From Trypanosoma brucei (lineage: Eukaryota): a stretch of 64,000 bases of DNA. Shown here in pieces: positions 3,548-28,525 of the stretch. Under the pieces are notes generated by a model that was not told the origin of the DNA, did not search any database, and was given only the letters and a program-made list of their open reading frames with translations. The DNA is taken from assembly GCA_000002445.1 (NCBI GenBank), contig CH464491.1, forward strand, positions 928,001 through 992,000. Direction: 5' to 3'. Numbering within the stretch: the first letter of the stretch is position 1; every line of letters begins with the position of its first letter. Both the position numbers and the translations under genes were made by a program.

Positions 3548-5707
3548 ATGGAGCGACAGCTTCGCGAACTCCTTGAGCAAGGAGGTTTGTCGCACACAAT
3601 TCAGGGGTTTGTCGATGGTGGTGTTCTTACCCTTCAGCAGCTTAAACAGCTCACCATGCAAGACTATCAATCTGTTGGTGTCATTGTCATGACTGACCGC
3701 CGAAAACTATTTGAGCTGATTCAATATATGAAGAGAGAGCAGGCGAACCCCCCCTCCGTATTGAACACCTCGGACGCGCCACGTGTACCCGAGCACACAC
3801 CTCAGGCCGTAACTGGTGCGCGAAACACAACGCCGAATTGCCGTAATGCGACACCCTCCAGCGCGCAACGCAAGGCGGAAAATGAGAACGCTCGCATGAA
3901 TGAAAGCAGGCAACTGTCAGGGGCGGGAGGGCGACGCGATCCACTTCATGTGATTGACGATATGGAACTCTCAGCCATGAAAATGACCCCAAACTCACGG
4001 CCACTCAGCCGTGTAGCACGCGCCTCCCCAACAGCCGCCACCCGTAAGCCTGGGGAGAGTGGAACTACTAAAAGAAAGGCAAGTCGCATCACAGTGGTGG
4101 TCCGCAAACGTCCGCTTAGCACGTCTGAGATCAATGATGGCTTATACGATATCCTTGCCACGGACCCTGACAACCTGCAGGCAATTGCCCTACTTGAGCC
4201 CAAACAGAAAGTTGACCTCACGAAATATATTGAAAAACATCGTTTCACCTATGATTTGGTTCTTGACGACAAGTACAGCAACCGCGATGTGTACGAGAAG
4301 GCATGCAAACCCCTTATTGAAACAGTGTTTGAGGGTGGGTGTGCCACTTGCTTTGCGTATGGACAAACGGGAAGTGGCAAGACATATACAATGCTCGGGA
4401 AGGGGGACCAGGAAGGTATATATCTGATGGCTGCACGTGATCTGTATGCTCGACTGGAAAGTGGGATGAGTATCATGGTTTCATTCTTCGAGATATATGG
4501 AGGAAAGTTGTTTGACCTGCTGAATGAGCGTGAGAAGCTTGCATGCCGTGAAGATAGTCGCGGTGTTATCAATGTTTGTGGCCTTACGGAACATCGTGTG
4601 GAGGATACGGGGCATCTCATGCGTGTAATCGACTACGGAAATTCCATTCGAGCGGCCGGCTCGACGGGCATGAATGCGGATTCCTCCAGGTCGCACGCTA
4701 TCCTTCACATAACGGTTTTGAATTCAAAGAACCGGTTCTTCGGTAGGTTCACCTTCATCGACCTCGCTGGAAGCGAGCGGGGTGCAGATACACTTGATAG
4801 CGACAGAACCACGCGCCTCGAAGGTGCAGAAATCAATAAGTCACTTTTGGCACTGAAGGAATGTATTCGTGCGCTGGACCAGAATCATCGGCACATTCCT
4901 TTCCGTGGTTCAAAGCTTACAGCCGTGCTGAGGGACTGCTTCACGGGGAACAGTCGCACTGTGATGATAGGCAATGTTAGTCCTGCAAGCGGAAGCTGTG
5001 AACACACCCTTAACACACTACGCTACGCTGATCGTGTGAAGGAACTAAAGAAAGACAAGTCGTCCCGCATCGCCGCCGAGGAAATCATGATTGGCCAGAT
5101 GCCAAGTGAAGAGATTGAAACACTTGGATTGAGCAGTAACTTTGCCCAAAGACGTGCCCGAGAAAAGAAGGCCGGCACCCGGTCCTCCAGTCATCTTTCA
5201 CAACGGGAACCAGGCACGCCTAACGCAAAGTCTCACAGCAGCTACGGCAGCGGCTATCGGCTCAAAGGGCAACATTCTCGCGTGTCAATGAGCTGCAAAG
5301 AGGAAGACTACCCGAACTTCTCCGACAGCATTCGCTCCGGGAAAGTTCCAAGTAGTGGAGGGACGAAGAGCTTCAACAGGGTGACACCAAAACACAGTCG
5401 TGTTGGCAGCGAAATATCGATCCGCGACGCTAGCCCGTATGAGATGACTTCTTTTGCGAGCGGTGATTCCTTAGACGAAGAAGAGGATAATACCATTCTG
5501 GGCCATCGCCGTCATATTGACGCAATGATGGAGTTATTGAAGCAAGAAATGACGGAATTGAATGGAGTAGAGATGCCTGGAGCCTCCATTGAGGTGTACT
5601 GCAAAAATGTTGAGAGCATTCTCAACCGTCAGGCGAAGAGTATTAGCAGTGTTAGAAATATGATAAGGCAGTTGCTAAACCGCCTGGAGTCTCGGCAACG
5701 CCGGTAA
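3548..5707 (+). CDS. Kinesin-13 family motor (MCAK-like microtubule depolymerase) with N-terminal SAM-like domain
   Basis: The motor domain is internal, at about nt 4085-5050. It has the P-loop [11 protein letters not shown], switch I SSRSH and switch II DLAGSE. Both kinesin-13-specific motifs are present: KVD ([12 protein letters not shown]) and KEC ([11 protein letters not shown]). The first ~65 aa look like a SAM-type helical bundle. Confidence 0.85.
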
Positions 5708-7894: not shown

Positions 7895-10800
7895 ATGAGG
7901 CGAGTACATCAGATTCCCTGTAAAAAACTGTTTAGGCAGTTGGGGCGTAGGGGAATATTATCCACACCGCCATCGCCAGTGGAGTCAGCAGAACCCACAA
8001 CCATCCGCTCAAGGGGCTACGGACCCAGTAAACATTTACTGCGCGGTGTTGACGCGACACGCGGCGTCGTTGTGGAAGCAGCCCTCAGCCCAGCGGATGT
8101 TGAGATGCAGCGCCGCGTTCTTTCGATGGCGAATCCAAATGTGGCGATCCACGCCAAACTTGAGGGTGAGCCTTCACCCGTTCATTCTGGCACCAACTCC
8201 CTTCATGGTGACGACCAGCGTCTGGCCGACCGTGCAGGTGTTGCTTCATCGGAGCAGTTAGCCTCTGTGGCAACTGTTATATTGGATGAGGTGAAGGAGC
8301 AATTGCAGCTCAACCTCAGCGCTGCGGATGCCTCACAAGATAGTCGAGCAGCCACTGTAGTGAATGCCGTCGCGGAGTGCCTGCGGAATGAGGTGGACCG
8401 CCTCATTCACGCGAACCACACGCAGGAGTCGTCCATTACCCGAGTGTTGAGGGAAAATACAGACCTGATTTGCAAGCGCGTCGCCGATGTCATATGCTCG
8501 GAGCAGCTGAAAACACTATCATTCAAGGACGTAGGTCAACTTCCGCAGGTCATCAAAGAGGTGGGAACGTCCCTTGTGAGGTTAGAGAGCGCCTTGAAGA
8601 GTGCACTGGATTCGAGCTTTGGAAAAGACAAAAATCTCGAAGAAGTATTGGGAGATTTGCGCGAACACATTGTCTCTGCCATCGAGCAAGCCTCGCATTT
8701 CCAACAGGAGCGACTTCTCGCTTCTGTGAGTGATTTACTGGCCGACTGCGCCGATGCGCAAGACAGCAAGTCACGTTTGGCTCAGGCTGCGAGTCTGAAG
8801 GTAATCGAAAAGAACGTGAGGGATGCCATGTCACAGATGGTGGAGGACACGCAACATAAGGTCCAGTCTGTATTGCGTGACCTCCGTGGGAGTGCTTCGA
8901 CCTCTGATGCCGCTGGAAGTACGACGAACGTAAGCAGCGGTAACGAGGTGGCGTTCGAGCGAATTTTAGCATCTTACGGCGAACGTCTTGAAGAACTGCG
9001 TGAGTCAACAGCTGCGGCCGTTGACCTTAAGGAGCTTATGATGGAAATTCATAGCATGCATCAGACAAGTGCAGGAGATGTGAGTGAAGTCAAAAACCTT
9101 GTGAAGAAACTAAAGAGAGAATTGATAAGCGCTCTCCAACCCTCCAACACTGAAAACACTGAAGGCAGCACTGTGGAACGTAAGTCCAGTGACACAATAG
9201 ATTACAATGGGATTTTTGCGGATAAATTGGACGCATTGGCAGACGATGTAATATCAAGGATAGATGGGCGACTGAAGGAGCAGCACGCTGATGTGAGGGA
9301 ACTGTCGGCGAGGCTTCTCCAGCTTGAAGATGTGATCAAGAAAACTCCCCGTGCTGCTCTCCAGGTGGGGTCAGTGCCTGAGCTGAACGACGACCGGCTG
9401 CTGGCGTTGGCACAAAGTATCAGTGAGAGTATTTTATCATCTCTTCCCCCGCATTCCGCCCCCGCTGTAGAGGAAAAAGAGCAACAGGAGCCACCGCGAC
9501 CGAGCGTCAGCACAGCGGTTGCCACTACTGCACACACCTTTACAGCAACAGAGCTCGCGGAGGCTGTGTCAGCTGCTCTCACCCCGAGACTGGATGAATT
9601 GGCGGCAGCCATCCAAAAGAAAGTGGCACCTACCTCCACTGCCTCGGGCAACGAATACGACAACAGACACATGGGTGAAACACAACTCGTAACCGTCGCA
9701 CAAACGATATGTGAAGGAGTGCGGGAAGCAGTTAGGGAAAGTATGGCCCTTTACAAACCACCCGTCGCCTCACCACCCACCCCGGCCCCGGGAGCAGTTG
9801 TTGCACCAGCTGTTGACACGTCTGCCTTAGAACAGGCAATGGTGACGAAAGTGGAAGATCTCAAAAGATGCGTTATGGACGCCGTGCAGGAAATGGACCG
9901 ACCACAGGAAATTGATCTCTCGCCGTTCCGTACGTACCTCGATGATGTGCTGCGCAGCATGCAGACAACTCTGAGCAAGCAGCAGCAAGCGACACAGGAC
10001 AAGGTTGATGGTGTGGTTGAAGCGCTGGCAAAGAAGCTTCAGGATTACCAACACCAATTAGAGTCGAAACTTCAAAGGCAGCACCGAGATCAAGTGGAGC
10101 AGATACAGGTTGTGCGAAGGGCACAAGAGCAAGATATGAAAGCTGATGAAGAGACGTGGAAACAACGGATGTCCCGGAACCAAGAAGACGCCGAGCAAAG
10201 GACAAACGAGCAAAAGTCTGCTGTCACGGGGGCCATGCAAGAGGTGTTTCTGCAAGTCAGGCAGCGGCTGACAGAAGATGTTCGCACACTTCTGAAAGGT
10301 GAAGTGGCCGCTGCCCTCATACCACTCGATGACCTTTACAAAGAGTTACGTGAAAGTGGGCAAAAGTCGCGTACCGCCTTGGAGGCGAAGTTGCGTTCTG
10401 TCGAGGACACACTGCAGTCCGTCCTTGACTCTGAACGACACCGCTCAGATCGTCTACAGGCAACACTTGACGACGTTATAGCATGTATTAAAAATAACTC
10501 GGGTGAAGTGAGCGGTTCGGAAACCGAAGCGTTGAAGTCCCTTAAAAGGCTATTGGAAGACCTCGCTGAGCGCAACACCGCTACCGGAATGGAAATATGT
10601 TCTGACGTGAAGGCTTCTTTAGAACGTACAGAAGAACTTCACGTTCAAACTGCAGAGAAGATGTTGAGGGGGTTTGATACGCTGAAGTATGAGATTCACG
10701 AAGGACGGCAACAACTTGACCAGCTCCTATCGTCCAACCAGCAGAATAAAGATGTTGCACTTGCTGTCGAGGCCATGCGCACGAAACTGGACGAAGTCCG

Positions 10801-12400
10801 TTATTCCCTCGACTGCATTATGGCATCTGTCCGTGAGATGCAAGAACACCCCATGAGACAATTACAAGAGCCGCAGCAGCAGCAGCAGTCCTTACTTAGC
10901 GAAACTGAAGTGAAGAGTCCAATAGATGACAAGGTGTTGGAGCAGTATGAGCAACGACAGCGAGAGGCATCCGATTTAATTGCGTCGCGTCTCGAAACCC
11001 TCTCGGCAACAACTCGTGAGGTTCTTTCGCAACTCCAACGGCAGCAGCCACGAAGATCGGAGGAGGAGATGGGTTCGCAGCCGGCCGTAACCACAAATTT
11101 AAGTGTGGAGAGTCTGCAAGCTATGGAGGGTCGTTTAGGTGAACGCATGCAGGCATTGCAGGCTGCGCTTGATGAGCTGACAAAAGTCAGTGCCAGTGTT
11201 CCTCCTACAACAGAGGTTTTCAGGAAAGACGAGGTAGACGGTGTTGAGGGAAGCAAAAGCTTCATAAAGGAAGTTGATGAGCTCATGACGCTCGTGAAGT
11301 CGTCGCGAAGTGTACAGGCGAAGCAAATGTGGGAGAGGCTGAGCATCTTGCGCACATCTCTGGTTGATGTGAGTACGAAAAAAACTGGAGACACCAACAT
11401 TAAACAACTGTTGGGGGCTCTGGAGGAAAATCGTCTGAAGCTGCGAGAGGAAATGGGGGAAGCAGAGAGAGAATTGGTTATAAAAATTGATGCCGCAACA
11501 CAGAAAGCGGTAGAGCACTTTGCTGCTCGTATAGAGAGGGCCGTTAAGGCGTCAGCAGATGCGGGGCTGGGGCAGCTGCGCAACGATCTCAAAGAAAGTA
11601 GTGAGATATTGAAAGCACACCAGCACCAGTTTTCGTCGCAGCTGCAGGATAGAATGACTAACATAGAGAGAACAAATAGGGAGTGCGCCGCTGAGTTAAA
11701 AGAAAAGTTGCGGGACACCAGCAAGGAGTATCATAATGCTTTGGGACAGTTTGTGAAAAACGATATGATTGCAGCCCTGCGTAGTACTGTTAATGAGGCG
11801 ACTACCCAGCAGATGCGTACCTTCACGCAACAGTTCACTTGGCAAAAGGAACGAGAGGAAACGAACAAAGAGGCGGTGATGCGGAGCGTTCAACAGGTTT
11901 CCCAAGGAGTTGGCAAACTCCAATCAATGAGCAGTGAGGTACGCACAGCCGTAACCAGCAGTTCGGCAGGTGTCGTTCAGGAGGTGAGGAACGCACAGAA
12001 GGACCTCGCGGTGCTTTTCGAGAAACGGCTTGCTGCCGTGTTAGAGCAGCAGAAAAAGCAGCAAGTGGTTCAAGTATTGTCGCCTGTGCGAGTCGGGGAA
12101 GCCGATTCTTCAAACGGTATTCCAAGTGAGACCACCGACACGCCTTCGCTTGTCACGATGGTAAATCCACAGGGGGCGTCCCACCTTTCATGGTTTTTGC
12201 TGTCGCAATCGGTTGTGACTATCATCACCATCATGCTGTGCGCATACTTTTTATTTGCGGCCTTCCTTGTTGCCTTCGTGCCTATTCCACTTACTGATGA
12301 ATTTGCCTCACACATGGAGCAGGCAGCGGATAATGATGTCTCTGAAATTGCCCTCAAGAGGCCGTTAGTCTCACGTGTAGCGGACCGGGTAATTCTATAA
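7895..12400 (+). CDS. Large coiled-coil protein (1501 aa) with C-terminal transmembrane anchor; hypothetical
   Basis: This is a 4.5-kb uninterrupted ORF in the same orientation as its neighbours. Its composition is heptad-like and rich in E, L, Q, K and R throughout. One strongly hydrophobic segment, SWFLLSQSVVTIITIMLCAYFLFAAFLVAFVPIPL, sits about 50 aa from the C-terminus. No catalytic motif was recognised. Confidence 0.8.
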   Translation: MRRVHQIPCKKLFRQLGRRGILSTPPSPVESAEPTTIRSRGYGPSKHLLRGVDATRGVVVEAALSPADVEMQRRVLSMANPNVAIHAKLEGEPSPVHSGTNSLHGDDQRLADRAGVASSEQLASVATVILDEVKEQLQLNLSAADASQDSRAATVVNAVAECLRNEVDRLIHANHTQESSITRVLRENTDLICKRVADVICSEQLKTLSFKDVGQLPQVIKEVGTSLVRLESALKSALDSSFGKDKNLEEVLGDLREHIVSAIEQASHFQQERLLASVSDLLADCADAQDSKSRLAQAASLKVIEKNVRDAMSQMVEDTQHKVQSVLRDLRGSASTSDAAGSTTNVSSGNEVAFERILASYGERLEELRESTAAAVDLKELMMEIHSMHQTSAGDVSEVKNLVKKLKRELISALQPSNTENTEGSTVERKSSDTIDYNGIFADKLDALADDVISRIDGRLKEQHADVRELSARLLQLEDVIKKTPRAALQVGSVPELNDDRLLALAQSISESILSSLPPHSAPAVEEKEQQEPPRPSVSTAVATTAHTFTATELAEAVSAALTPRLDELAAAIQKKVAPTSTASGNEYDNRHMGETQLVTVAQTICEGVREAVRESMALYKPPVASPPTPAPGAVVAPAVDTSALEQAMVTKVEDLKRCVMDAVQEMDRPQEIDLSPFRTYLDDVLRSMQTTLSKQQQATQDKVDGVVEALAKKLQDYQHQLESKLQRQHRDQVEQIQVVRRAQEQDMKADEETWKQRMSRNQEDAEQRTNEQKSAVTGAMQEVFLQVRQRLTEDVRTLLKGEVAAALIPLDDLYKELRESGQKSRTALEAKLRSVEDTLQSVLDSERHRSDRLQATLDDVIACIKNNSGEVSGSETEALKSLKRLLEDLAERNTATGMEICSDVKASLERTEELHVQTAEKMLRGFDTLKYEIHEGRQQLDQLLSSNQQNKDVALAVEAMRTKLDEVRYSLDCIMASVREMQEHPMRQLQEPQQQQQSLLSETEVKSPIDDKVLEQYEQRQREASDLIASRLETLSATTREVLSQLQRQQPRRSEEEMGSQPAVTTNLSVESLQAMEGRLGERMQALQAALDELTKVSASVPPTTEVFRKDEVDGVEGSKSFIKEVDELMTLVKSSRSVQAKQMWERLSILRTSLVDVSTKKTGDTNIKQLLGALEENRLKLREEMGEAERELVIKIDAATQKAVEHFAARIERAVKASADAGLGQLRNDLKESSEILKAHQHQFSSQLQDRMTNIERTNRECAAELKEKLRDTSKEYHNALGQFVKNDMIAALRSTVNEATTQQMRTFTQQFTWQKEREETNKEAVMRSVQQVSQGVGKLQSMSSEVRTAVTSSSAGVVQEVRNAQKDLAVLFEKRLAAVLEQQKKQQVVQVLSPVRVGEADSSNGIPSETTDTPSLVTMVNPQGASHLSWFLLSQSVVTIITIMLCAYFLFAAFLVAFVPIPLTDEFASHMEQAADNDVSEIALKRPLVSRVADRVIL

Positions 12401-13874: not shown

Positions 13875-16685
13875 GTGGGGGGTTTGATGGCAGAGGTGAA
13901 GCTTCCGCGGCCGGGCCGAAGCCCCTCCTCGGGCAAAGTCACCGTCACCACCTCTTCAAAGCGCCAAGCAAAAAGCGCCCCATTCAAATTTCTCCGCAAA
14001 GATGAGGGACGGCTTTCTTACTCGTGCACACCAGAGTCCCCAGTTTCAGTGTGTGGTAATGTTTCCCACGGTAACAGTATGACTAACCGTGAGCTCGCTG
14101 CCATGGATAGGAACAGTTCCCGCTCACTCCGCGAAGCAATAGCCAATGATATGCGCAAAGGGAAAGCTAACGATCCTTTCGGCGGCTTTGAGGTCGCGGT
14201 TCCGAAGCGGGGACCACCACCTGGCGCATCGCCGCGGGAGGAACGTGGGATGTCTCTTGAAGGGTCGCAGTTGCATGACAACGTAAGTGTATCATCCCCT
14301 CCTGCTGCCGTGCAGCACACCTCTTCCCGCCTGGCTGTGGGAGACGCTAACCATAGCGAATCCATCGGGGACAAGTCCGTCAGCACGAAACGACTTGAAT
14401 CCCGTACTTCAGACGAGTCGGAAAGAACAGTAGAACCCCAGCCACAACAACACCAGCAGCTACAGTTGCAGCAACACCAACTGCAGCAGCAGCAACAAAT
14501 GCAGTTGCAACAACAGCTACAGCAGCAGCAACAGCTACAGCTTCAACAACAACAGCAACAACTGCAACTGCAACAACAGCAGCAGCAGCAAATACAACTA
14601 CAACAGCAACAGCACCAGCTACTGCCAAACCACAGTCACCAGATGCAATTGCAAACCCAACTCCCACAGCAACACCCTCCACAAGGCTATCAACAGCAGT
14701 TGCTGAATCACGGCCAGCAGTGGCAGCACTCGCAGGTGCAGGCGCAACCGCAGCCGACGCGACAGCGTGTGAGTCCAATGAACACCAACACTTTTTCGCG
14801 GAACATCGAGGAGAGTGAGTTGGGCGACTGGTGCCCCTCGCCGGTGCAACAACGTCGGTGGAGGAACGGGGAATCGGACAACGGACATACTCGTCGGTCG
14901 ATTGCTACCCGCTACGGTGACCCAGGAGAACTAGACGGTGAATATGTGAGTGGTGGAAGGAGCCTCCGCAACTATTTTCGACCTCCGCTTCCAGAATATC
15001 ATCAGCCACGTGAGGAGGAGGAGTTGGTGGGCCAGCTGGAAGAGGAATTGCGCGTCACGAAGGAGGAGCGATCCCGGTATTATCAGCTGCGCATGCAACT
15101 GGAGCGTGAGCGGCAGCGTTTCGAGGAATACCGCTCTGGAGTGGAACAGGACATGGAGGACGAACGGGTGCGGTTGGATGCCGCACGGGCTTCGGAGCAG
15201 CGCCAGGCAAAAAAGGACGTGAAGGTAGTGGAAGAGCGGTATAAATCTACTCTCGAACTTCTCAGGACAGAGCGTGATTCAAACACAAAGCTGACACAGG
15301 AAAACGAGATGCTGCGCCAGCAACTGGAGGTGACGACAGCACGGTTGCGTGAGTCGCAGAAGCTGCAAAAGGCGGAGACGAACCGGCTGCGACGTGAGAT
15401 TGAGTCTCTGACGCGGCGGAACGAAGAGCTGTTGGAATTGGCAAGAGAACAACAACTCACAGCATTAGAACGTGGTGAGACGCTGACACCACCACTGCTG
15501 TTGCACAGCGGCCCAAATATACGACATAAAGCTTCGGCTAACAGTAGTAGCGCTCCGAGGAGCGGTGAAGATGTATACGAATTGCATGGTAGTTCACTAC
15601 CCACTAGAAGCTACTCTTCTGAGCAGAATCGTTATCTGGACATTGTAGAGAGGGAGAGGAGACTAGCGGAGGAAGAGGAGCACGAGCGGAAACGGTTGGA
15701 AGCTGAGGATAGAAGACGTGCCGAGATGGAAGAAAGGCGAAGGCGCATTGAAGCCGAGGAAGCGCGGCGTGCTAAAGAGGAGGAGGAAAGGCGAAGGCGC
15801 ATTGAGGAGGAGGACCGTCGTCGCGCCCATGAAGAGGAGGAAAGGCGGAAGCGGGTTGAAGCCGAAGACAGGCGCCGCGCTGAGGAAGCGAAGCGCAAGT
15901 CTGCGGAAGCTGAAGAGAGGCGTCGTGCTGAAGAAGAGGAAAAGCGCAAACGTGCGGAAGCGGAGAACAGGAAGCGGGTTGAGGAGGACAAGGTTAGGCG
16001 CGCAGATGCGGAAGTTGCTCCGCGGCGGAAGGTAGATGCAAAGAAGGTTGTGCGGGAGGAGCGTTCGCAGGCGATCGACGAGGGCGCAACTAGCAAGAAG
16101 CTTGAGGCACGCCAGCAGCGGCGCTCCTCCGGTCATCCTGTTTTAACTCCTCGCGCGCAGAGCTCCAAAACAGCGAATTCTGCAGTAGCAACTGCCCGTG
16201 CAGCATCGCAGGCTTGCACCTACGCAACTCGCAAAGGACGCCGCGCACCCACTGCCAGCGAATTAACCGCGGACAATGAGCCCGTTCCGGATGAAGACTT
16301 TCCGAACGATACCGTCGTGTCGCAGACATCCCTAGGAGAAAATCCCAATAAGCGTGAAGTGTTGTACCGTAGCGGGAAGCGAGAGATACACTACACGAAT
16401 GGGACTCGCAAGATTATTCTTCCCTCGAGCCACGTGATGCTCTACTTCGCAAACGGAGACATCAAACGGACATTCCCCTCAGGGAAGAGCACATATTGGT
16501 ATGCTGTGGCGCAGACGACACACACACAGTATGCAGATGGAGCTCAGGTGTTTCAGTTCCATTCTACCGGGCAAGTAGAGCGCCACTTACCGGATGGAAA
16601 AAAAGAAATTCTTTACCCTGACGGTATCTACAAGGTTGTGCATCCAGACGGTAGGGATGAAACCATTTTCCCTGACGAAAGTTGA
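13875..16685 (+). CDS. CPAP/SAS-4-like protein with TCP10 C-terminal (G-box) domain; poly-Q and E/R/K-rich repeat regions
   Basis: The C-terminal ~110 aa carry repeated YxNG/YxDG beta-strand units (YTNGTRKIILPSSHVMLYFANGDIKRTFPSGK...YADGAQVFQF...YPDGIYKVVHPDGRDETIFPDE). These are typical of the TCP10_C/G-box of CPAP/SAS-4 centriole proteins. A long poly-Q tract and an E/R/K-rich repeat block also lie within the ORF. Confidence 0.75.
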   Translation: MGGLMAEVKLPRPGRSPSSGKVTVTTSSKRQAKSAPFKFLRKDEGRLSYSCTPESPVSVCGNVSHGNSMTNRELAAMDRNSSRSLREAIANDMRKGKANDPFGGFEVAVPKRGPPPGASPREERGMSLEGSQLHDNVSVSSPPAAVQHTSSRLAVGDANHSESIGDKSVSTKRLESRTSDESERTVEPQPQQHQQLQLQQHQLQQQQQMQLQQQLQQQQQLQLQQQQQQLQLQQQQQQQIQLQQQQHQLLPNHSHQMQLQTQLPQQHPPQGYQQQLLNHGQQWQHSQVQAQPQPTRQRVSPMNTNTFSRNIEESELGDWCPSPVQQRRWRNGESDNGHTRRSIATRYGDPGELDGEYVSGGRSLRNYFRPPLPEYHQPREEEELVGQLEEELRVTKEERSRYYQLRMQLERERQRFEEYRSGVEQDMEDERVRLDAARASEQRQAKKDVKVVEERYKSTLELLRTERDSNTKLTQENEMLRQQLEVTTARLRESQKLQKAETNRLRREIESLTRRNEELLELAREQQLTALERGETLTPPLLLHSGPNIRHKASANSSSAPRSGEDVYELHGSSLPTRSYSSEQNRYLDIVERERRLAEEEEHERKRLEAEDRRRAEMEERRRRIEAEEARRAKEEEERRRRIEEEDRRRAHEEEERRKRVEAEDRRRAEEAKRKSAEAEERRRAEEEEKRKRAEAENRKRVEEDKVRRADAEVAPRRKVDAKKVVREERSQAIDEGATSKKLEARQQRRSSGHPVLTPRAQSSKTANSAVATARAASQACTYATRKGRRAPTASELTADNEPVPDEDFPNDTVVSQTSLGENPNKREVLYRSGKREIHYTNGTRKIILPSSHVMLYFANGDIKRTFPSGKSTYWYAVAQTTHTQYADGAQVFQFHSTGQVERHLPDGKKEILYPDGIYKVVHPDGRDETIFPDES
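14441..14735 (+). repeat. Coding (CAG/CAA)n poly-glutamine tract within the CPAP-like CDS
   Basis: The translation is QQHQQLQLQQHQLQQQQQMQLQQQLQQQQQLQLQQQQQQLQLQQQQQQQIQLQQQQHQLL... Confidence 0.9.
15645..16075 (+). repeat. Coding tandem repeat (~48-51 nt, 5-6 units) encoding E/R/K-rich helical repeats inside the CPAP-like CDS
   Basis: The DNA unit aggcgaaggcgcattga(a/g)g...gaggaggaggaaa recurs. The peptide units are RRRRIEAEEARRAKEEEE, RRRRIEEEDRRRAHEEEE, RRKRVEAEDRRRAEEAKRK and SAEAEERRRAEEEEKRK. Confidence 0.85.
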
Positions 16686-18223
16686 GAGAGTAGTGCAATT
16701 CCTTTACTCAATTTAGTTTTTCTTGAAATAATTACCTTGTGGTGATGCCCGTAGACCTTTTTCAGGTACTAGTCAAAATGTGCGGTGTCATAGTTAAGTT
16801 TCCGACTTATTGTATGCCATCGTTTCTCCTCCTTTCTCCGTTCTATCTCCTCTTCTCACTCTACATTTCTTTCGTTTGCTCTGAGTTATATGCACCGTCC
16901 ACGAGTTTCTGCTTTTTTTTTCTGTTTTTGAGAGGGGAATGGGAAAAGATTTTACAGCTTTGTTGCTCACACCCCATATAATTTGGATGAGTGACATGCA
17001 CTTTATTGGATACGCATAATATAAGGAGGAGCAGGGGAAGTATTTTAACCCTAATGTTATCCCCTCGCGCACCCGTTCTTTCCCCTGCTTTTGTGGGGAT
17101 TTTTACTTTCTTTTTTTATCTCTCACATCTTTCTCGTTGTTTTTTTTTTTTGGTTCATCAAGCAACATTGACTTCCCACTTACCCATGCTTCTCTCGTGT
17201 TTGTGCAGCATTTTTTTTTTTTTGTATGGGTGTGTGGCTCCCTTTTATTACTTTGAAGGATGGTTTGACTTATTGTGCGCACTCATAACCACCTTTCACT
17301 GAAGGTAAAAGGGAGGTGGCACTGGACTGGGAAGAAAAAGCGAAAGAAATGACTTTGCTTCGCTGGCACACACAAATTCTACCATTATACGATGTTTGGT
17401 ATATGTTTTTGTGTGTTTAATTGCACTTGTTCTTGTGTTGCGCTAATGTGAGGGTGCTTGGTTTTATGATTTCGATGTTTTGCTTTTTTTCTTCTTTTTT
17501 TTTATACAGGAAAAAAAAAGAGAGGAAACGTAATATAACTTCACTGTTGTCGTTATCATTTGTTTCACCATTCACTGTTTGCGTGGGCCCGACTCACCTG
17601 TGGCGTCAACGTACGCTTTATGAGTTCAATTGTGCAAGTCAGCTGTCGTTGCAATAATTGATGAGAAGCAAGTGAGATTGTGGGGGGGGGGGAAAGAAAG
17701 AAAGATAAAAAGAACGGGAAAAAGTTATATATATATATATATATATTTATTTATTTATATTTATATATATACATGCGTGTGAGTGTGTGGGTGTATATTT
17801 ACTCCTTCTTTTGTGAGAGAAGAGACATGAGTGCGGTGTTGCGCTCAATTATTTGAGGGAAGGGGTTCACCATCGGGTATTGCTATGAAGCTGAGACAAC
17901 CTCATCCCTTTCCCCCCGTCGTAACAAAAACAAAAACAAAAAAAAACAACAAAAGTGAAAGGAATGTCTGTACTTAGTTTTTACAATATAGAAAAAAAAA
18001 CGAGAGAGAGAGAGTAGGAAACGAGGCCGATGTACTTTTTTTTTGTTGTTCTCTTAATGTTTCAGTCTCCGAAAAGTGCCTCGGGAAGGGAACACGGATG
18101 AGAGCTTAACGCTCGTATTTTCCCGTTGCTTTTCCATCCCACTTCATATTTCGTTCTTTTTGTTTGCATTCCGCCGTAAACTTTCGGTGCGGGTTGCCTC
18201 CTTCTGTCCGCTGCGTTTTTCGT

Positions 18224-18250
18224 TTGTTGTTGTTGTTGTTGTTGTTGTTT
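18224..18250. repeat. (TTG)9 microsatellite
   Basis: Directly visible. A second (TGT)n run lies at 19929-19950. Confidence 0.95.
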
Positions 18251-19677
18251 TTTGCTTTGAACTATTACCATTATTATCATTATTACGTTGCCGTACCCTT
18301 CTCCCCTCCTTTTTTTTTACTTTTCACTTCATGAAGCGTGGGTGCAAGGTGATAATAATAGTAATAATGATAATATTGTTGAGAAATGAAAAAAAAAAGG
18401 ATGAGGCCGAGGGATTGACATGGAGAAAAGGAGGCAGAAATGGTGGTTATTGGGAACGGTAACGAACGGGTGAAGAGTTTGTTTTTTTTTTCGTGTTTTC
18501 ACTTCGTTTGTCTTTTTCACCGTTTCGTTCATACCATCATAGACAATTTTTCTTGTAAAAATAAATAAATAAAAAAGGTGTGGGCGGAGGAAAGGAAGGA
18601 AGGAATGGAAGGAAGGAAGGGATGGTTGGAGTAAAGGAAAGAGGGGGGAAAAAAAAAGAAGCACAGTTGAGAAAATATATACATTTTTTTTTGTTTTTTG
18701 TCTTTACTTTTTTCCCCCTTTTGCGTGTATGGAAGTGTGCGTTGAAATGTTGTTATTGTTGTTGTTCTTGTTTTTCTGCGGTGTGTGCTATTTTTTCTCC
18801 CTGTCCTCTCGCCCCTTCTTCTTTTCCCCTTTTTGAGAAGTAAAGAGTGAAAGGAATGACTTAATGAGAGAATGGGTTAAGAGAAAATGAAGTGATAATG
18901 TGGAAGATGAAAAAAGAGGAGCCAGTTGTGATCTTTGCATTTATACTTTACTTTTTCTTTGCGTGTGTGTGTATGTGTGTTTTTTTTTTTTTGGGGGGGG
19001 GGCGGGGGAAAGTTATATATTTGGAATTTTTTCCTATGGTGGTGTGGTGTAGTGGCTGCGTTTATGCTTGTTTTTTATTTATTTACTTTTCCCTAATGCA
19101 GAGGCGCACGCATGCATAATTACTGCTGTTGGTATTATGTGATGTGTGAAATGTCCGTCTTTAATTTGGGATTTGGTTGTATTTAGAGCGTATGCGGGAT
19201 GGCGGTTTAGCGAGGAACTGCGAAAGGTGGAAGAAAATTATGGGGGAAAAAAGGAAAAAAAAAAGGAGTACGTAAAAGAAAGAAAGGAAGACACTTGTAA
19301 GAATAATGAGTTTCGTTGCGGCACTAAAGGGGAAAGCCAAGGAAGGAACGGTGCATATAAACAAAGAAAAAGAAGAAAAGGAAGTGACGTTGGGGGCGTA
19401 AAGTTGTTTCCTCCACTTTACTTTACTTTTTCTTATTTTTTTTTTTTTACTTATGATTCTTATCTTTCTTTTCGTTATTTTCGACTCTGGTATGTTTTTC
19501 TTCTTTTTGACCCTTCCGCTCGCTGCGCTCCCCTCTCCCCTTCCCCGACCCCTTTTTTTTTGGGGGGGCTCTTCCTTGAACTCTAAGTGTTATCATCTTT
19601 ATATATTTACACTTCTGCACCTTCCTTCACCTTCAGCTTCACCTTCCCGCAACGCCGCCGCTGATGAGTTTGTCTGA

Positions 19678-19714
19678 TGATAATAATAATAATAATTATT
19701 ATTATTATTATTTC
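19678..19714. repeat. Perfect AT-only palindrome (TAA)6-(TTA)6
   Basis: taataataataataataattattattattatt is self-complementary and has cruciform or hairpin potential. Confidence 0.9.
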
Positions 19715-20989
19715 TTCCCTCTCCCACTTATTTCGCTCCTCTGTTTTCTTACACAGTGACCTTCCAATGATGTTGGTGCATCTTCAGAGACACTGCCGCA
19801 CCGCCGTCGTAGTTCCTCTGCTGAATTTTTATTTTTCAAATAATAAAGCAAGAAATAAGTTTGTAAGAATTTGTGATTGTTTACATATATATATATATAT
19901 ATATCCGTAATGGTTGTTATTACTACCTTTGTTGTTGTTGTTGTTGTTGTGGACAGAACAGGAGAGAATCAACCGAACAAAAATCCCCGAAGCTGAAAGA
20001 GAAACCAAACAAACAAACAAAAAAAAAAAGGAACTTCTTAAAACCTTCTTCCCCTCCGTTACATCTCATTTGCCATATCGGTGTGTGAAAGCACGGCTTT
20101 GCTACGATGCCCCGCCGTGTTTGTTTGTTTTTGTTTCATTTGGTCCGATGCATGGCTCTGATGAACTTCATTTTCTCTTCACATGCATACGTATCATATT
20201 CTTTTCTTTTACACTTTTCCCTCTTTTGTTCTTTCTTCATGTACGACTTGTGTGTCTTTCCCTTCTTTTCCCCGCCACCCTCATGCCTTTATTATTAAAT
20301 GACGCATGTGTACCAATGAAAGATGGAACTTGTTAGGTCGTTAGGTGAAGTTTTTCTTTTTTTTAAAAAAAAAAGAAAAAAAAAGAGAAAAAAATTTTCG
20401 AGCCATGGGAGAAGGCGTTTGATGTGTCGTGATGGGGAATGAGATGGAGGAATTGATGTGTGCGTGTGTGTGTTTGTGTGTGGCGTGCTCTTGTAATCTG
20501 AAGTTTAAATTTCAACCTTATGGCCATTGCGGTACTGATTTGGGTTTTTACCTCCCTCCCTCCCTCCCACTGTGTCAATCCTTTACATATTTATGTGTCA
20601 ATTTATTTATTTATTTGTTTGTTTATTTTTATTTATTTAATTTGCTGTTACTTTCATCCCGACATAATTTTGGACCTGTCGCCAATTGTGGTGTCCCCCC
20701 CAAAAAAAAATAAACATATTAATATTCATAAAGGAGAAGGGAAGGTTTTTGACATCAACGAAACTTAAAGGGAAAACAAGTCAACACGTGGAGAAAATTA
20801 AAGAGAAATAAGTGAAGCACAAGAAAAAGGGGAAAAAATAAAATAAAATAAAGAACTAACACAACATTTTCCTTAAAAAAAAAAAAAGGAATTCAAAGAA
20901 ATAGCAGTAGCAGAAGCAAAAGAAAAAGAAAAAAATAAAAAAAAAAGAAAAGCACCAAATACAATTATTATTTATCCACTTACGCATCA

Positions 20990-21406
20990 ATGGTTGAGGT
21001 ACCGCGTAATTTCCGTTTGTTGCAGGAACTTGAGGCGGGGGAAAAGGGAACAGGTGTAAGCCAAAGTGTCTCTATTGGCCTCAGTGGGATGGATGACATT
21101 TATATGCATAATTGGAATGGCACTATTCTCGGACCTCCCGGTACCACATTTGAGAATCGCATCCTCTCACTAGAAATTCACTGCGATGAACATTACCCCA
21201 AACGCCCGCCGAACATTAAGTTCATCAGCCGTGTGAACCTGCCGTGTGTGAGCAGTGATGGTACTGTTGATAAAAACAAGTTTGCCGTCTTCAAGACTTG
21301 GGATCGCAACTTCACAATGGCGCATTGTTTGATGGAACTCCGTCGGGAGATGTCGCTTCCAGCTAATAAAAAACTACCGCAACCGGAGGAGGGTTCAACG
21401 TATTGA
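20990..21406 (+). CDS. Ubiquitin-conjugating enzyme E2 variant (UEV/Mms2-like, catalytically inactive UBC fold)
   Basis: The N-terminus MVEVPRNFRLLQELEAGEKG and the segment WNGTILGPPGTTFENRILSLEIHCDEHYPKRPPNIKFISRVNLPCV align with the UEV1/Mms2 family. The HPN active-site motif is replaced by HYP and the catalytic Cys position is lost. The protein is 138 aa, a typical UEV size. Confidence 0.82.
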   Translation: MVEVPRNFRLLQELEAGEKGTGVSQSVSIGLSGMDDIYMHNWNGTILGPPGTTFENRILSLEIHCDEHYPKRPPNIKFISRVNLPCVSSDGTVDKNKFAVFKTWDRNFTMAHCLMELRREMSLPANKKLPQPEEGSTY

Positions 21407-21419
21407 TGAGGCCGCCATT

Positions 21420-21600
21420 TGTTGTGATCGCTGGCCCTCTTTCTTTTTCTTTTTTTTTTCCTTTTCTTTTTTTTTTTCTTCACCTTTCTTCATTTGTTTG
21501 TTTTGTTTGTTTTTGGTTCAATTCCTTCCTTCCTTCCTCCCCTCCCCTCCCCTCTCCTCTCTATTTCTCTCCTCTTTCTTTCTTTTTCTAAAACCCTCTG
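21420..21600 (+). promoter_or_regulatory. 180-nt homopyrimidine (C/T) block downstream of the UEV gene
   Basis: It is almost purine-free on the + strand (ctttctttttcttttttttttcc...cctcccctcccctcccctctcctctctatttctctcc). It is a candidate polyadenylation or trans-splicing control tract, but no ORF lies within 2.3 kb downstream. Confidence 0.5.
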
Positions 21601-22898
21601 CTACGACACTAAAACTATGATAATTATGATGGTAATAACTTTTAATTATTATTATTATTATTGCGATTATAGTTAATACTCTTATGTTCTCCTAAGTGTG
21701 TGTGCATGCGTTTTAAAAACAAAAAAAAAGGGGAAAGAAGGAGAAATGAAGTTAGAGCGGAAAAATAGGAGAAAAGTACGAGTCAACGTAAAAAAAAAAA
21801 GGAAGAAGAAACAGCACCAAATAAAAACGTGGGAGAAAAATGAAAAAAAAAAAGAAACAGAAACTGAAACTGACACAAGAAAATAATAAATTTTTTATTT
21901 GTAAAAAAGAATGAAGGAAAGAGGTAAATGTTAGGAGAGATTGGTTGGTAGGGCCATCATGTTGACAAGACAGAAAAGGCAAAAAAAAAACAAAGGGGGG
22001 CAGGAACAGAAATAAAGTAAAATGAGAAAAGGAGTTTTTTTTTTTTTTTTGAAAGAAAAAAAAGAAGAAAGGGAAAGGGATATGAGAGAGTGAATCGTAA
22101 TTATACACGGAAGTAAATAAAGGATGGAAGGAATTAATTGTGTGTGTGTTTTTTTTGTTGTTGTTGTTTTTTTGTTGAGGGGAGAGGAAGAAATAAAAAG
22201 AGAAGAATCAGAAGAAAAAGGGAAGAGAAAAAGAAAGTGGAAAGAGGGGAGTGTATAAGGAAGAGTTGCGAGGGAGTCATGCATCTATATATCCCATGCT
22301 GTGTGTTTCTTTTTTTTTTATTATTTGAAGGAGGGGGAAATAAAAACAACAATAACAACACTCATTACATGCGCACGCACAGGGACGACATGCGTTTGAA
22401 TTTGATATAAGAAGAAAGAATTGCTTGTGAAGAAGAAGGAATAGTGAACAGCGAACACCAATTTTTTTTTTCTAAAAAAAGAAAAAAAAAGGGACAAAAG
22501 GATGCATTGTTTTGAGGTTATGAGCGCCCGCCAATCCTAAACCCTCCATACTTTTAAAAAAAAAAATGATGTTTGAATGACGTCCATAACACATTTCTTC
22601 GAAAGCGAGGAGGAGGATAAAAGAGGATGAAATTGCTCAAAAAGAGTAAAAGGGATAAAAATGTATCATTTGAAATACTCCAGAAGTAACGCGGTATACC
22701 ATATAGGAAGCAGAATATATATATGGTATATGTTTTTCATGAAAGTTTCCTCTACTCTTCCAAAAAAAGAAAAAGAAGAAAAGAAAAAAAAAATCATAAC
22801 ATGAGCCTCAGAATGTTGCCGGACAAGTGAATGTACGTTTTTTTTTCTTTTTCTTCTTTTTTTTTTTCTTCTGTTCGACTTGATTTTGATATCTTCCA

Positions 22899-22961
22899 TA
22901 TATATATATATATATATGAGTGAGTGAGTGAGTGGGGGGGGAGGGAGGGAGGAAGGAAGGG
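22899..22961. repeat. Compound microsatellite (TA)9-(GAGT)4-G-rich (GGGA/GGAA)n
   Basis: Directly visible as tatatatatatatatatat gagtgagtgagtgagt ggggggggagggagggaggaaggaaggg. Confidence 0.9.
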
Positions 22962-23986
22962 AGTTGAAGGCCCGTCACTACTTGTGTGGACGAGCGTTTA
23001 TGTACGAGTGTGCTTGTGTTTGTGTTTGTGTGTGTGTGTTTTTGTTTTTTTTTTTCGTTTGTCGGTGTTCGTGTTCGTCTTTGAAAAGGGGGAGGGGAGG
23101 AGTTGCTGATGTTTCTCTTAACTTTGCTTTATTCTTGGTTCTGCGTTACCCTGCTTAATAAAAAAAAACAATATGTGAAGAAGGGAATTATATATATATA
23201 TATATAGAAGAAAGCAAAAACAAAAAAAGGAGCGAGATATAATTCTTCTGCTAGGGTGTTGCACTGTTCGTGAGTTCCCTCTTTTGTTCTTTTTTTTTGT
23301 TGTTGTTGTGAAGGTTGAGGAGTCAATTTGTAGGGACCACACGTATTGTCTCAATCTTCCATCTTTCCTTTCCTTTTTTGTGTGTGTTTTGTTCAGTATT
23401 TTATCTTTTTCCTTTTCACTCCACTGATTGCTCTTTTCTCTTTCCCTCTCTCTTGTAGTTGTTGTTTTGTCATATCAATGATAGATGAAAGGCAAGCTAA
23501 TAGAAAACATAAAACATGGCAGTCGGTGATATCAATGAGGTAACCTCTTTGTAAAGTCGGATGTATTGTTTTGATCCTGTGATTTGAATTATTATTTTCC
23601 TCAATGTCGGTTATATTATGAACATATGGGGGAGTGGAAGGTATACATAGGTGCAATTTGTGATGGTTTGTGTGAGAATATCACAAGCTTTCTAGCGGGT
23701 GCACTTCGTGGTCAGATGTTTTTTTTTCTTTTTCCTTGGGCTTCTTCACATCAACTGCAGGTGGTATTAGACGCTGCTGTTGAGATACTTGCGAGGATGC
23801 TGACGTGCAGAATTCCCCCAATAGCACAATATGTTGATTTGTTACTCTCTTCTATTCGACAGGTTTGTTTGTTTGTTTGTTTGTTTTTCCTTGTTCCCGG
23901 TTTCCTCATTTGTCTTTCCTTTTCCTATACTGCTTTTCATATCCGAAATTATATTTGAACTTTTGCTGGCTAATCCTGTGAAGCTT

Positions 23987-28300: not shown

Positions 28301-28525
28301 ACGACCATGGAAGAAATGTTCTCCACTGTAAGTCGACTCTATACAAGATTGCAGTCTCGTCAAAGCCGCCGCTCGAATAGCAGCTGTAGTTTCGCGAGTG
28401 ATCAGTCTTCGGCGTCGATCAACGCTATGCTCGCGAACCTACAGCTTCTGCAATGCCAAAATAGTCGTATAGAGGCCCAGAACCGCGAGATCCTGTCGAA
28501 ACTTAGCTCTGCGAACGGTCGATAA
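25355..28525 (+). CDS. Hypothetical protein (1056 aa), possible beta-propeller N-terminal region, Ser-rich disordered middle, C-terminal coiled coil
   Basis: The ORF is long, same-strand and sits behind a polypyrimidine tract. It has a coding-like, non-repetitive composition. No recognisable catalytic motif was found. The C-terminal 80 aa are heptad-like. Confidence 0.7.
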   Translation: MCGVSGVGGHDVPLPSLVTSSDKWLVYGCATDALVVCALKDELPSSCSSNAGSTGGESDFVQNTSVVSLPAGEELSVVCIHPVKDLLCVGTTLNGVYLTTAANPNFSAGAKLSLRFSGIVSHCACFVNGVEEGHDILVMSCLLEEALVECHKLLLWDVCSKALLWRGCTEAMVSITAVPGVVGFASCSRRHLLMWSFRNGASSASSLTSTANSAVGADEDSGGTITVFSKTFAAVEELHDVEYVCVVTPASSAEKSLTVLTTKGFLVSFNLHSGEPLKWMDCKISSVTSAYRCGGDIVVCGGLVRFFSEDWVFRGKIRPPEHSPHPGTPHAPHSTGLTCTGAAPCGGNAIAFFFTGGGIVRCRIGRLGVEAKMCDSVSTCSKLTFHCVYEYVPISPHDAPIQLLALTPDVICLHSRHQLRLYGTPLLFSRGNMSFESTCCAYHRGLGVIAMYESSAHQIVAVTPGLERVLCRLGLEVPLTALITLEDNQFVGLSAANTIIYLEGQWGEDMQHFSLRLLRIQRFAELKTPFTHLAYSAGVLHVASSREVVNLHTGHITSFNDDIIALIPASGGALLVVHTHSCIFLSPSGVTPVGFPFLEADLRGAASSLGRRYVALYNEGNVHVVELSSGKRVKHISAQRGASGASPTTIRCVGFTADDSSIVVCDSRGVLEVHGFEGTGLISPGIYGDATSADDTNTNRFSRESSCSSSRRAKQLDGPTSTELQNRFKDLHGFYEASRRVATERKAYKLPERHSKFASSTGTNSSSGRSTPSPPTSANRSSGKNAFRVQDGDEGLLPTPKKSPYPARRWKAADVPASLLNVGAGGNEILVSASLVEVSALTSIDSKHNDLSSVLEGGAAALSWAVNDIPRDSGKCRVPDSPAYVLQSPTRKGEPLLSPMKVPEDDVVNVDSFDRVDPRRIERLHSQTAGHDDPTALQCHRTNSSDGIASLRARSLDIRDGLKELADAYERLGEEDGDDVDETTMEEMFSTVSRLYTRLQSRQSRRSNSSCSFASDQSSASINAMLANLQLLQCQNSRIEAQNREILSKLSSANGR

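What the first reader, a model, noticed from the sequence alone, without database searches (positions are those of the whole stretch)
7895..12400. 1501-aa coiled-coil protein with a single C-terminal TM helix (tail-anchored golgin/nesprin-like architecture)
About 1400 residues are heptad-rich and free of recognisable enzymatic motifs. One very hydrophobic 30-aa segment follows, then a ~35-aa tail. This topology is that of tail-anchored tethers such as giantin-like golgins, or of KASH-type nuclear-envelope proteins. Either would be a structurally interesting organelle-positioning factor in a trypanosome.
Basis: inference. Interest (0 to 1): 0.5.

Follow-up and report, generated by a model that had tools for sequence, protein, structure and literature searches.

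The report
Known trypanosome kDNA-tether protein p166
The 1501-residue open reading frame is real, but it is the well-studied Trypanosoma brucei protein p166, which sits in the inner mitochondrial membrane and ties the mitochondrial genome to the flagellar basal body; it is not a Golgi or nuclear-envelope tether.

Summary
The ORF at 7895-12400 (+) exists and encodes 1501 aa (166.3 kDa). It has one strong hydrophobic segment (aa ~1431-1467) followed by exactly 34 residues. The sequence is 100% identical to GenBank ACJ38224.1 "p166 [T. brucei brucei TREU927]" (XP_828411.1, Tb927.11.3290).

p166 was the first subunit found of the tripartite attachment complex (TAC). Published experiments show four things:
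- The N-terminal 25 aa act as a mitochondrial presequence.
- The C-terminal TMD anchors p166 in the inner mitochondrial membrane.
- The large N-terminal part lies in the matrix and binds TAC102.

The golgin/KASH/tail-anchored assignment is wrong. There is an N-terminal presequence, no KASH or golgin domain, and no PPPX end. "About 1400 heptad-rich residues" is overstated. The protein is about 75% predicted helix, but its hydrophobic periodicity peaks at 3.6-3.67 and only about 320 residues score as heptad-like.

The family is confined to trypanosomatids in an exhaustive search. It has three conserved islands: aa 36-80, the TMD, and the last 11 aa. Verdict: already known, low interest.

The parts
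7895..12400 (+). p166 gene (Tb927.11.3290), 1501 codons plus stop
   Evidence: ORF confirmed. The product is 100% identical over 100% of its length to XP_828411.1 / ACJ38224.1 'p166 [T. brucei brucei TREU927]'. The 1501-aa length and the gene ID are given in PMC9242489.
7895..7969 (+). Mitochondrial presequence, aa 1-25 (MRRVHQIPCKKLFRQLGRRGILSTP)
   Evidence: Net charge +7, with the first acidic residue at aa 30. In PMC9242489 the first 25 aa of p166 import GFP into the mitochondrion in a membrane-potential-dependent way and are cleaved.
8000..8134 (+). Most conserved island of the family, aa 36-80 (..R-S-x-G-Y-G-P-S/T-x-D/H-L..L-x-P-x-D..Q-R-x-V-L..), just behind the presequence
   Evidence: 57% mean identity to the T. 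brucei sequence across 12 trypanosomatid sequences, against 28% for the whole protein, with 9 invariant columns. Modelled as non-helical at low confidence. None of the papers I read assigns it a function of its own.
8105..8524 (+). aa 71-210, the overlap of the yeast two-hybrid clones that bind TAC102
   Evidence: The TAC102-binding Y2H clones cover aa 37-210 (two clones) and aa 71-716 (one clone) of p166 (PMC7521757). This stretch contains many invariant residues among Trypanosoma orthologues, Q121 to I200.
8246..12178 (+). Long, acidic, mostly alpha-helical matrix region (aa ~118-1428) with coiled-coil patches, forming part of the unilateral filaments
   Evidence: About 80% helix in low-confidence AF2 models. 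Amphipathic periodicity 3.6-3.67. Heptad-like patches at aa 156-191, 447-487, 823-869, 941-989, 1020-1051, 1068-1098, 1230-1259 and 1301-1355. One L-x6 leucine-zipper pattern at aa 1074-1095. Whole-protein pI 5.3.
12185..12295 (+). Transmembrane segment, aa ~1431-1467 (LSWFLLSQSVVTIITIMLCAYFLFAAFLVAFVPIPLT), inner mitochondrial membrane anchor
   Evidence: The only Kyte-Doolittle peak, 2.63. Modelled as a helix at aa ~1429-1461 with block pLDDT of 66-77. 50% identity to the T. brucei sequence across trypanosomatids, with the motif A-Y-x-x-F-x-x-F-L-x-A-F-V-P-x-P. Deleting the TMD makes p166 carbonate-extractable (PMC9242489).
12296..12397 (+). 34-aa C-tail, aa 1468-1501, exposed to the intermembrane space. 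The last 11 aa (LVSRVADRVIL, window 12365-12397) form the TAC60-binding amphipathic helix.
   Evidence: The tail is exactly 34 aa. The last 11 aa have a hydrophobic moment of 0.61. R1494, V1495, D1497 and V1499 are invariant in Trypanosoma; R1494 and D1497 correspond to R1492/D1495 in the 1499-aa Tb427 numbering of PMC11637284. The linker aa 1468-1490 is only 9% conserved. The tail is protease-accessible in mitoplasts and is needed for TAC60 pull-down and for kDNA segregation (PMC9242489).

Best explanation

The mechanism, step by step:
1. The precursor is imported through its N-terminal presequence (aa 1-25) across the outer and inner membranes.
2. The single C-terminal TM helix (aa ~1431-1467) stays in the inner membrane. 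About 1400 mostly helical, acidic residues are left in the matrix and 34 residues in the intermembrane space.
3. The last 11 residues form an amphipathic helix. Its hydrophobic face docks into a kinked-helix pocket in the intermembrane-space loop of the outer-membrane protein TAC60. This makes a permanent outer-inner membrane contact site.
4. The N-terminal region (within aa 37-716, minimal overlap aa 71-210) binds TAC102, the subunit nearest the kDNA.

p166 is therefore the load-bearing link that carries the pull of the separating basal bodies across the inner membrane to the kDNA, so that each daughter cell inherits one mitochondrial genome.

Basis of each step:
- Shown experimentally in the cited papers: the presequence, membrane integration, topology, TAC60 and TAC102 binding, and kDNA loss on RNAi.
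- Shown here: sequence identity, the one-TM architecture, the 34-aa tail, the conserved islands, helical content and taxonomic restriction.
- Inferred: that the matrix part is an extended filament-like spacer, and that a stop-transfer mechanism retains the TMD.
For: Identity:
- The sequence is exactly GenBank ACJ38224.1 'p166' = XP_828411.1. Orthologues are named 'protein p166'.
- The 1501 aa and Tb927.11.3290 match PMC9242489.
- The computed mass is 166.3 kDa and the pI 5.3, which fits 'p166, large acidic protein' (PMC7521757).

Architecture tested here:
- A single hydrophobic peak.
- A 34-aa tail, matching the paper's '34 aa C-tail'.
- A basic N-terminus free of acidic residues.
- Invariant R1494/D1497, matching the conserved R1492/D1495 of the 1499-aa Tb427 protein.

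Conservation:
- The TM segment and a terminal R-x-V-D-x-V motif are kept in Trypanosoma, Phytomonas, Porcisia and Angomonas.
- Synteny with T. cruzi: squalene epoxidase, kinesin, p166, Tcp10_C protein.

Function, from the literature:
- PMC9242489.
- PMC11637284.
- PMC7521757.
- PMC10374059.
- PMC12453217.
Against: Nothing contradicts the identification.

Caveats:
- Both AlphaFold2 models are low confidence (mean pLDDT 54.8 and 48.4). The shape of the matrix region (extended filament or bundle, monomer or oligomer) is therefore not established here.
- p166 lacking the TMD or the C-tail still localises to the TAC region (PMC9242489). Localisation must therefore also depend on other, unidentified contacts.
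- The original 2008 paper (PMC2206137) is not in the held library and could not be read.
Confidence: 0.97

Rival explanations
1. Tail-anchored golgin (giantin / golgin-84 / CASP-like). In this reading a cytosolic coiled-coil rod is inserted post-translationally into Golgi membranes by its C-terminal TM helix and tethers vesicles.
For: A long helical protein with a single TM helix about 35 aa from the C-terminus and patches of heptad pattern.
Against: - There is no match to any golgin family (Golgin_A5, CASP_C, GRIP, GRAB) in Pfam at E <= 1, or at E <= 10 for the last 100 aa.
- The N-terminus is a basic presequence, shown experimentally to import GFP into mitochondria (PMC9242489). That excludes the tail-anchor route.
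- Homologues occur only in trypanosomatids.
Confidence: 0.01
2. KASH-type (nesprin-like) nuclear-envelope protein. In this reading the short luminal tail binds a SUN protein to form a LINC bridge.
For: The topology is superficially KASH-like: a large helical part, one TM helix and a tail of about 30-35 aa that crosses an inter-membrane space and binds a protein of the opposite membrane (PMC9242489).
Against: - No KASH Pfam hit.
- The tail ends ...SRVADRVIL, and orthologues end ...RVVDQVME or ...RVVDQVL. None ends in PPPX or a terminal P-T.
- The partner is TAC60 of the mitochondrial outer membrane, not a SUN protein.
- The protein is in the inner mitochondrial membrane.
Confidence: 0.01
3. A generic helical scaffold of the inner mitochondrial membrane, unrelated to genome segregation (for example a cristae or contact-site organiser), with the p166 name attached by annotation transfer only.
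For: The sequence has no diagnostic domain. Most database entries call it 'hypothetical protein, conserved'.
Against: - The exact sequence is the GenBank entry named 'p166 [T. brucei brucei TREU927]' (ACJ38224.1), so this is not annotation transfer.
- RNAi of Tb927.11.3290 causes kDNA loss and missegregation, and an RNAi-resistant tagged copy rescues it (PMC9242489).
Confidence: 0.01

Closest known systems
p166 (Tb927.11.3290), TAC subunit of Trypanosoma brucei (Zhao et al. 2008 EMBO J; Schimanski et al. 2022, PMC9242489; Stettler et al. 2024, PMC11637284)
   Same: Identical sequence. Same length, presequence, TMD, 34-aa C-tail and conserved R/D pair in the terminal helix.
   Different: Nothing differs. 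Residue numbers in PMC11637284 are lower by 2 because that paper uses the 1499-aa Tb427 allele.
LINC complex (KASH-domain nesprins with SUN proteins) of the nuclear envelope
   Same: It works in a comparable way. A single-pass protein with a short C-terminal tail spans an inter-membrane space and binds a protein of the opposite membrane. Together they form a force-bearing bridge that couples a microtubule-organising structure to a genome. This comparison is my inference from the topology.
   Different: - It is a different organelle, the mitochondrion.
- The polarity is reversed: the tail-bearing protein is in the inner membrane.
- There is no KASH or SUN homology and no PPPX end.
- Binding relies on the hydrophobic face of an 11-aa helix.
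- It is restricted to trypanosomatids.
It is not a member of this family.
Transmembrane golgins (giantin, golgin-84, CASP)
   Same: A long helical protein with a TM helix near the C-terminus.
   Different: - It has an N-terminal mitochondrial presequence, so it is not tail-anchored.
- There is no family match.
- The helical part faces the matrix, not the cytosol.
- Canonical heptad pattern covers only about a fifth of the protein.
It is not a member of this family.
Apolipoprotein A1/A4/E-type amphipathic helix repeats (PF01442)
   Same: A weak sub-threshold Pfam match over aa 556-728 (33 bits, E = 5.5e-8) and a hydrophobic periodicity of 3.6-3.67, typical of 11-mer amphipathic helices.
   Different: The score is far below the curated cutoff of 90 bits. 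It most likely reflects composition and periodicity rather than homology.

Membership tests
p166 (TAC inner-membrane subunit) family | Sequence orthology to T. brucei p166 / Tb927.11.3290 | tested here: met
   100% identity over 100% coverage to ACJ38224.1 'p166' / XP_828411.1. Conserved gene order with T. cruzi.
p166 (TAC inner-membrane subunit) family | N-terminal mitochondrial presequence | tested here: met
   aa 1-25 have net charge +7, with no acidic residue before aa 30. Experimentally sufficient for GFP import (PMC9242489).
p166 (TAC inner-membrane subunit) family | Single TMD near the C-terminus, followed by a short C-tail ending in a conserved amphipathic helix (R-x-V-D-x-V) | tested here: met
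   One Kyte-Doolittle peak. 34-aa tail. The motif is invariant in Trypanosoma and recognisable in Phytomonas, Porcisia and Angomonas.
p166 (TAC inner-membrane subunit) family | Localisation between basal body and kDNA, TAC60 and TAC102 binding, and kDNA loss on depletion | not testable with these tools
   Taken from the literature for this exact gene: PMC9242489, PMC11637284 and PMC7521757.
KASH-domain proteins (nesprin type) | KASH domain (PF10541): a TM helix plus a luminal peptide of about 30 aa ending in PPPX (or a terminal P-T in plants) | tested here: not met
   No KASH hit at E <= 1 for the whole protein or at E <= 10 for the last 100 aa. The end is ADRVIL with no PPPX, and orthologues end in VDQVME or VDQVL.
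KASH-domain proteins (nesprin type) | Outer nuclear membrane location and a SUN-domain partner | not testable with these tools
   The literature places the protein in the inner mitochondrial membrane, with TAC60 as partner.
Tail-anchored proteins (GET/TRC40 clients), including the TM golgins giantin, golgin-84 and CASP | No N-terminal targeting signal, with the C-terminal TM helix as the sole targeting element and the N-terminus in the cytosol | tested here: not met
   A basic presequence-like N-terminus is conserved in orthologues. It is functional as an MTS, and the N-terminal part lies in the matrix (PMC9242489).
Tail-anchored proteins (GET/TRC40 clients), including the TM golgins giantin, golgin-84 and CASP | Golgin family domains (Golgin_A5, CASP_C, GRIP, GRAB) or homology to known golgins | tested here: not met
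   No such Pfam hit. An exhaustive phmmer search of aa 30-730 found only trypanosomatid p166 relatives. No PDB relative.
Canonical coiled-coil rod | Heptad (3.5-residue) hydrophobic periodicity over most of the length | tested here: inconclusive
   A home-made heptad score beats the 99th percentile of shuffles over about 321 of 1501 aa (null 70 +/- 43). Periodicity is stronger at 3.6-3.67 (z = 14-15) than at 3.5 (z = 9.7). No dedicated predictor (COILS, MARCOIL, DeepCoil) was available.

The most novel reading that the evidence does not exclude
The gene itself is known. The least-explored features are two conserved islands that published work has not explained.

(a) aa 36-80, just behind the presequence (R-S-x-G-Y-G-P...L-x-P-x-D...Q-R-x-V-L), is the best-conserved stretch of the family: 57% identity against 28% overall. 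Its first half lies outside the minimal TAC102-binding overlap (aa 71-210).

(b) The TM segment is conserved well beyond what a passive anchor needs (A-Y-x-x-F-x-x-F-L-x-A-F-V-P-x-P, 50% identity).

One or both might be the docking sites for the still-unidentified accessory factors that Schimanski et al. postulate to hold tail-less p166 at the TAC. Alternatively they might mediate p166 self-assembly into the ring seen by expansion microscopy.
Probability: 0.25. Interest if true: 0.3.

Novelty: already known. Interest (0 to 1): 0.1.

Why it matters
p166 matters biologically. It is the only known inner-membrane link in the machine that segregates the single mitochondrial genome of trypanosomes. 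The p166-TAC60 contact is a rare example of a permanent outer-inner membrane contact site, and it is a parasite-specific drug-target idea (PMC11637284). All of this is already published for exactly this gene, so the finding adds nothing new. The value of this check is to replace a plausible but wrong Golgi/nuclear-envelope assignment with the correct mitochondrial one. It also records that the 'coiled coil' label is only partly justified by the sequence.

Tried and rejected
- Golgin, KASH and tail-anchor readings. Rejected on Pfam scans of the whole protein and of the last 100 aa, on the terminal-motif check and on the published MTS and topology data.
- Word-indexed profile search with the alignment of Trypanosoma orthologues. 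It found nothing beyond the genus. The exhaustive phmmer search was needed to reach Phytomonas, Porcisia and Angomonas. Its tenth hit, P0020, is a 602-aa repetitive protein with no TM segment and no p166 motifs, and I treat it as spurious.
- AlphaFold2 on the two halves with an 11-sequence alignment. Mean pLDDT was 54.8 and 48.4, so I used only the secondary structure. I did not run fold search, because matches to such low-confidence models would be meaningless.
- PDB sequence search. No relative was found.
- The look-up of encoding contigs for the T. brucei protein. It is not on record, so I used the T. cruzi orthologue for synteny instead.
- Zhao et al. 2008 (PMC2206137). It is not in the held library, so its statements are cited only as relayed by later papers.
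- Rfam and tRNA scans of the whole window. They found nothing.


Full report

The + strand carries an uninterrupted ORF from the ATG at 7895 to the stop ending at 12400, encoding 1501 aa. The ATG is the first possible start after the upstream in-frame stop. Pyrimidine-rich tracts typical of trypanosome trans-splicing regions lie upstream. The minus-strand ORFs of 151-307 aa inside the gene have no support and are most simply shadows of the coding frame.

The product weighs 166.3 kDa and has a pI of 5.3. It is rich in L, A, E, S, V, Q and R.

A Kyte-Doolittle scan finds exactly one hydrophobic segment. The peak is 2.63 at aa 1443-1461, and the next-best window anywhere scores 0.88. The hydrophobic core is aa ~1431-1467, and exactly 34 residues follow it, D1468-L1501.

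Pfam finds no enzymatic domain. The only hits are sub-threshold: Apolipoprotein (33 bits against a cutoff of 90) and DUF7108_C.

**2. The coiled-coil claim is overstated.**

- A heptad a/d occupancy score in 28-aa windows exceeds the 99th percentile of shuffled sequences over about 321 residues. These fall in eight patches. The shuffled null is 70 +/- 43 residues.
- Hydrophobic periodicity is very strong, but it peaks at 3.6-3.67 residues (z = 14-15), not at 3.5 (z = 9.7).
- AlphaFold2 models of the two halves, built with an 11-sequence alignment, are low confidence: mean pLDDT 54.8 and 48.4.
- Their DSSP strings give about 75% helix overall and about 80% for aa 118-1428. The first ~117 residues are mostly non-helical.
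- The TM segment is modelled as a helix at aa ~1429-1461, with some of the highest pLDDT values in that model.

A fair summary is a long, acidic, amphipathic-helical protein with coiled-coil patches. It is not 1400 residues of heptads.

**3. What it is.**

The first protein search returned a 100% identical, full-length match from T. brucei brucei TREU927. Orthologues at 34-46% identity in T. congolense, T. theileri, T. rangeli, T. conorhini and T. cruzi are named 'protein p166'. The exact-sequence look-up shows that the same sequence is GenBank ACJ38224.1 'p166 [Trypanosoma brucei brucei TREU927]' and XP_828411.1 / Q386I2.

Schimanski et al. [quoted passage not shown] The 34-aa tail I measured equals their '34 aa C-tail'.

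Stettler et al. 2024 (PMC11637284) name R1492 and D1495 as the best-conserved tail residues. They use the 1499-aa Tb427 allele. In the 1501-aa sequence here the corresponding residues are R1494 and D1497, and both are invariant in my alignment of eight Trypanosoma sequences.

Gene order matches T. cruzi: squalene epoxidase, kinesin, p166, Tcp10_C protein, small UQ_con protein. The identification is secure.

**4. How it works.**

The following is published for this exact gene.
- RNAi of p166 causes kDNA loss and missegregation. An RNAi-resistant tagged allele rescues this.
- The first 25 aa import GFP into the mitochondrion. Import depends on membrane potential, and the presequence is cleaved.
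- p166 resists carbonate extraction, but the TMD-deleted version does not.
- The C-terminal tag is protease-accessible in mitoplasts, which places the tail in the intermembrane space and the ~150-kDa N-terminal part in the matrix.
- The binding site is the last 11 residues, an amphipathic helix. Its hydrophobic face docks into a kinked-helix pocket of the TAC60 intermembrane-space loop. The conserved charges are dispensable.
- Yeast two-hybrid clones covering aa 37-210 and aa 71-716 bind TAC102, the subunit nearest the kDNA.
- TAC102 depletion lowers p166 abundance.
- Expansion microscopy shows p166 in a ring-like arrangement.

My own calculations agree with this picture.
- The N-terminus has net charge +7 and no acidic residue before position 30.
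- The last 11 aa have a hydrophobic moment of 0.61.

The mechanism is therefore a force-bearing bridge. TAC60 in the outer membrane binds the p166 tail. The p166 TMD spans the inner membrane. The p166 matrix region binds TAC102, which connects towards the kDNA. In this way basal-body separation is coupled to segregation of the mitochondrial genome.

Two steps are inferred rather than shown:
- that the matrix part is an extended spacer contributing to the unilateral filaments;
- that the TMD is retained in the inner membrane by a stop-transfer mechanism.

**5. Distribution and conservation.**

A word-indexed profile search found only Trypanosoma. An exhaustive phmmer search of aa 30-730 against 1.84 billion representative proteins returned only ten hits.
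- Nine are p166 relatives from Trypanosoma, Phytomonas (CCW66757.1), Porcisia (XP_067758799.1), Angomonas (CAD2219674.1) and one unnamed assembly.
- The tenth is a repetitive protein without any p166 feature.

Every full-length relative has three features in common:
- the GYGP motif near the N-terminus;
- one TM peak ending in F-V-P-x-P;
- a 31-44-aa tail ending in R-x-V/I-D-x-V/L-L.

In a 12-sequence alignment the mean identity to the T. brucei protein is as follows.

| Region | Mean identity |
|---|---|
| Whole protein | 28% |
| aa 36-80 | 57% |
| TM segment (aa 1431-1467) | 50% |
| Last 11 aa | 41% |
| Tail linker (aa 1468-1490) | 9% |

No PDB entry is related by sequence.

**6.

Membership of the KASH family fails.
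- There is no KASH match.
- There is no PPPX end.
- The partner is TAC60, not a SUN protein.

Membership of the tail-anchored golgins fails.
- There is a functional N-terminal presequence.
- There is no golgin domain.
- The helical part faces the matrix.

The p166-TAC60 pair is functionally analogous to a LINC bridge. In both, a short C-terminal tail crosses an inter-membrane space to bind a protein of the opposite membrane, and the assembly links a microtubule-organising structure to a genome. The differences are the organelle (the mitochondrion), the reversed polarity and the absence of homology. This analogy is my inference.

**7. Verdict.**

The feature is already known and intensively studied, so interest is low. 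Two modest open points remain. One is the strongly conserved aa 36-80 island. The other is the unusually conserved TM sequence. Neither has an assigned role in the papers I read.

Noticed in passing
window 8000-8134 (p166 aa 36-80): This is the best-conserved stretch of the whole p166 family (R-S-x-G-Y-G-P...L-x-P-x-D...Q-R-x-V-L): 57% identity against 28% overall across 12 trypanosomatids. It lies just behind the presequence, and its first half lies outside the minimal TAC102-binding overlap, aa 71-210. It is modelled as non-helical. No function is assigned to it in the papers I read.
   Followed up: partly
window 12185-12295 (p166 aa 1431-1467): The TM segment is conserved far more than a passive anchor would need (A-Y-x-x-F-x-x-F-L-x-A-F-V-P-x-P, 50% identity). 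That could point to a specific intramembrane contact or an import/stop-transfer signal.
   Followed up: partly
window 13875-16685 (+): The gene immediately downstream of p166 encodes a 936-aa protein with Tcp10_C repeats, a domain I know from centriole proteins of the CPAP/SAS-4 type. It also carries a Q-rich CAG/CAA repeat at 14439-14622. The ORF as listed starts at a GTG, so the true ATG start is probably further in. A Tcp10_C-containing gene next to a TAC gene is conserved in T. cruzi, but trypanosome polycistrons are not normally functional clusters.
   Followed up: no
window 16686-23830: This is a stretch of about 7 kb with 36-44% GC and no ORF of 150 aa or more, which is unusually long for T. 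brucei. It contains one small 138-aa ORF at 20990-21406 (+) with a ubiquitin-conjugating-enzyme (UQ_con) domain, syntenic with T. cruzi. About 4.3 kb upstream of that ORF and 2.4 kb downstream remain apparently non-coding. There are no Rfam or tRNA hits, only short simple repeats.
   Followed up: partly
window 44986-58368 (+): A giant 4460-aa ORF with a C-terminal HECT ubiquitin-ligase domain, SPRY domains and a Laminin_G_3/ConA-like domain.
   Followed up: no
window 3548-5707 (+): A 719-aa kinesin with a sub-threshold N-terminal SAM-domain match ahead of the motor domain (SAM_1, 21.7 bits against a cutoff of 23). If real, that would be an uncommon combination.
   Followed up: no
window 25355-28525 (+) and 58826-59767 (+): Two ORFs, of 1056 aa and 313 aa, have no Pfam match at E <= 0.001. 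All large ORFs in the window are on the + strand, consistent with one polycistronic transcription unit.
   Followed up: no
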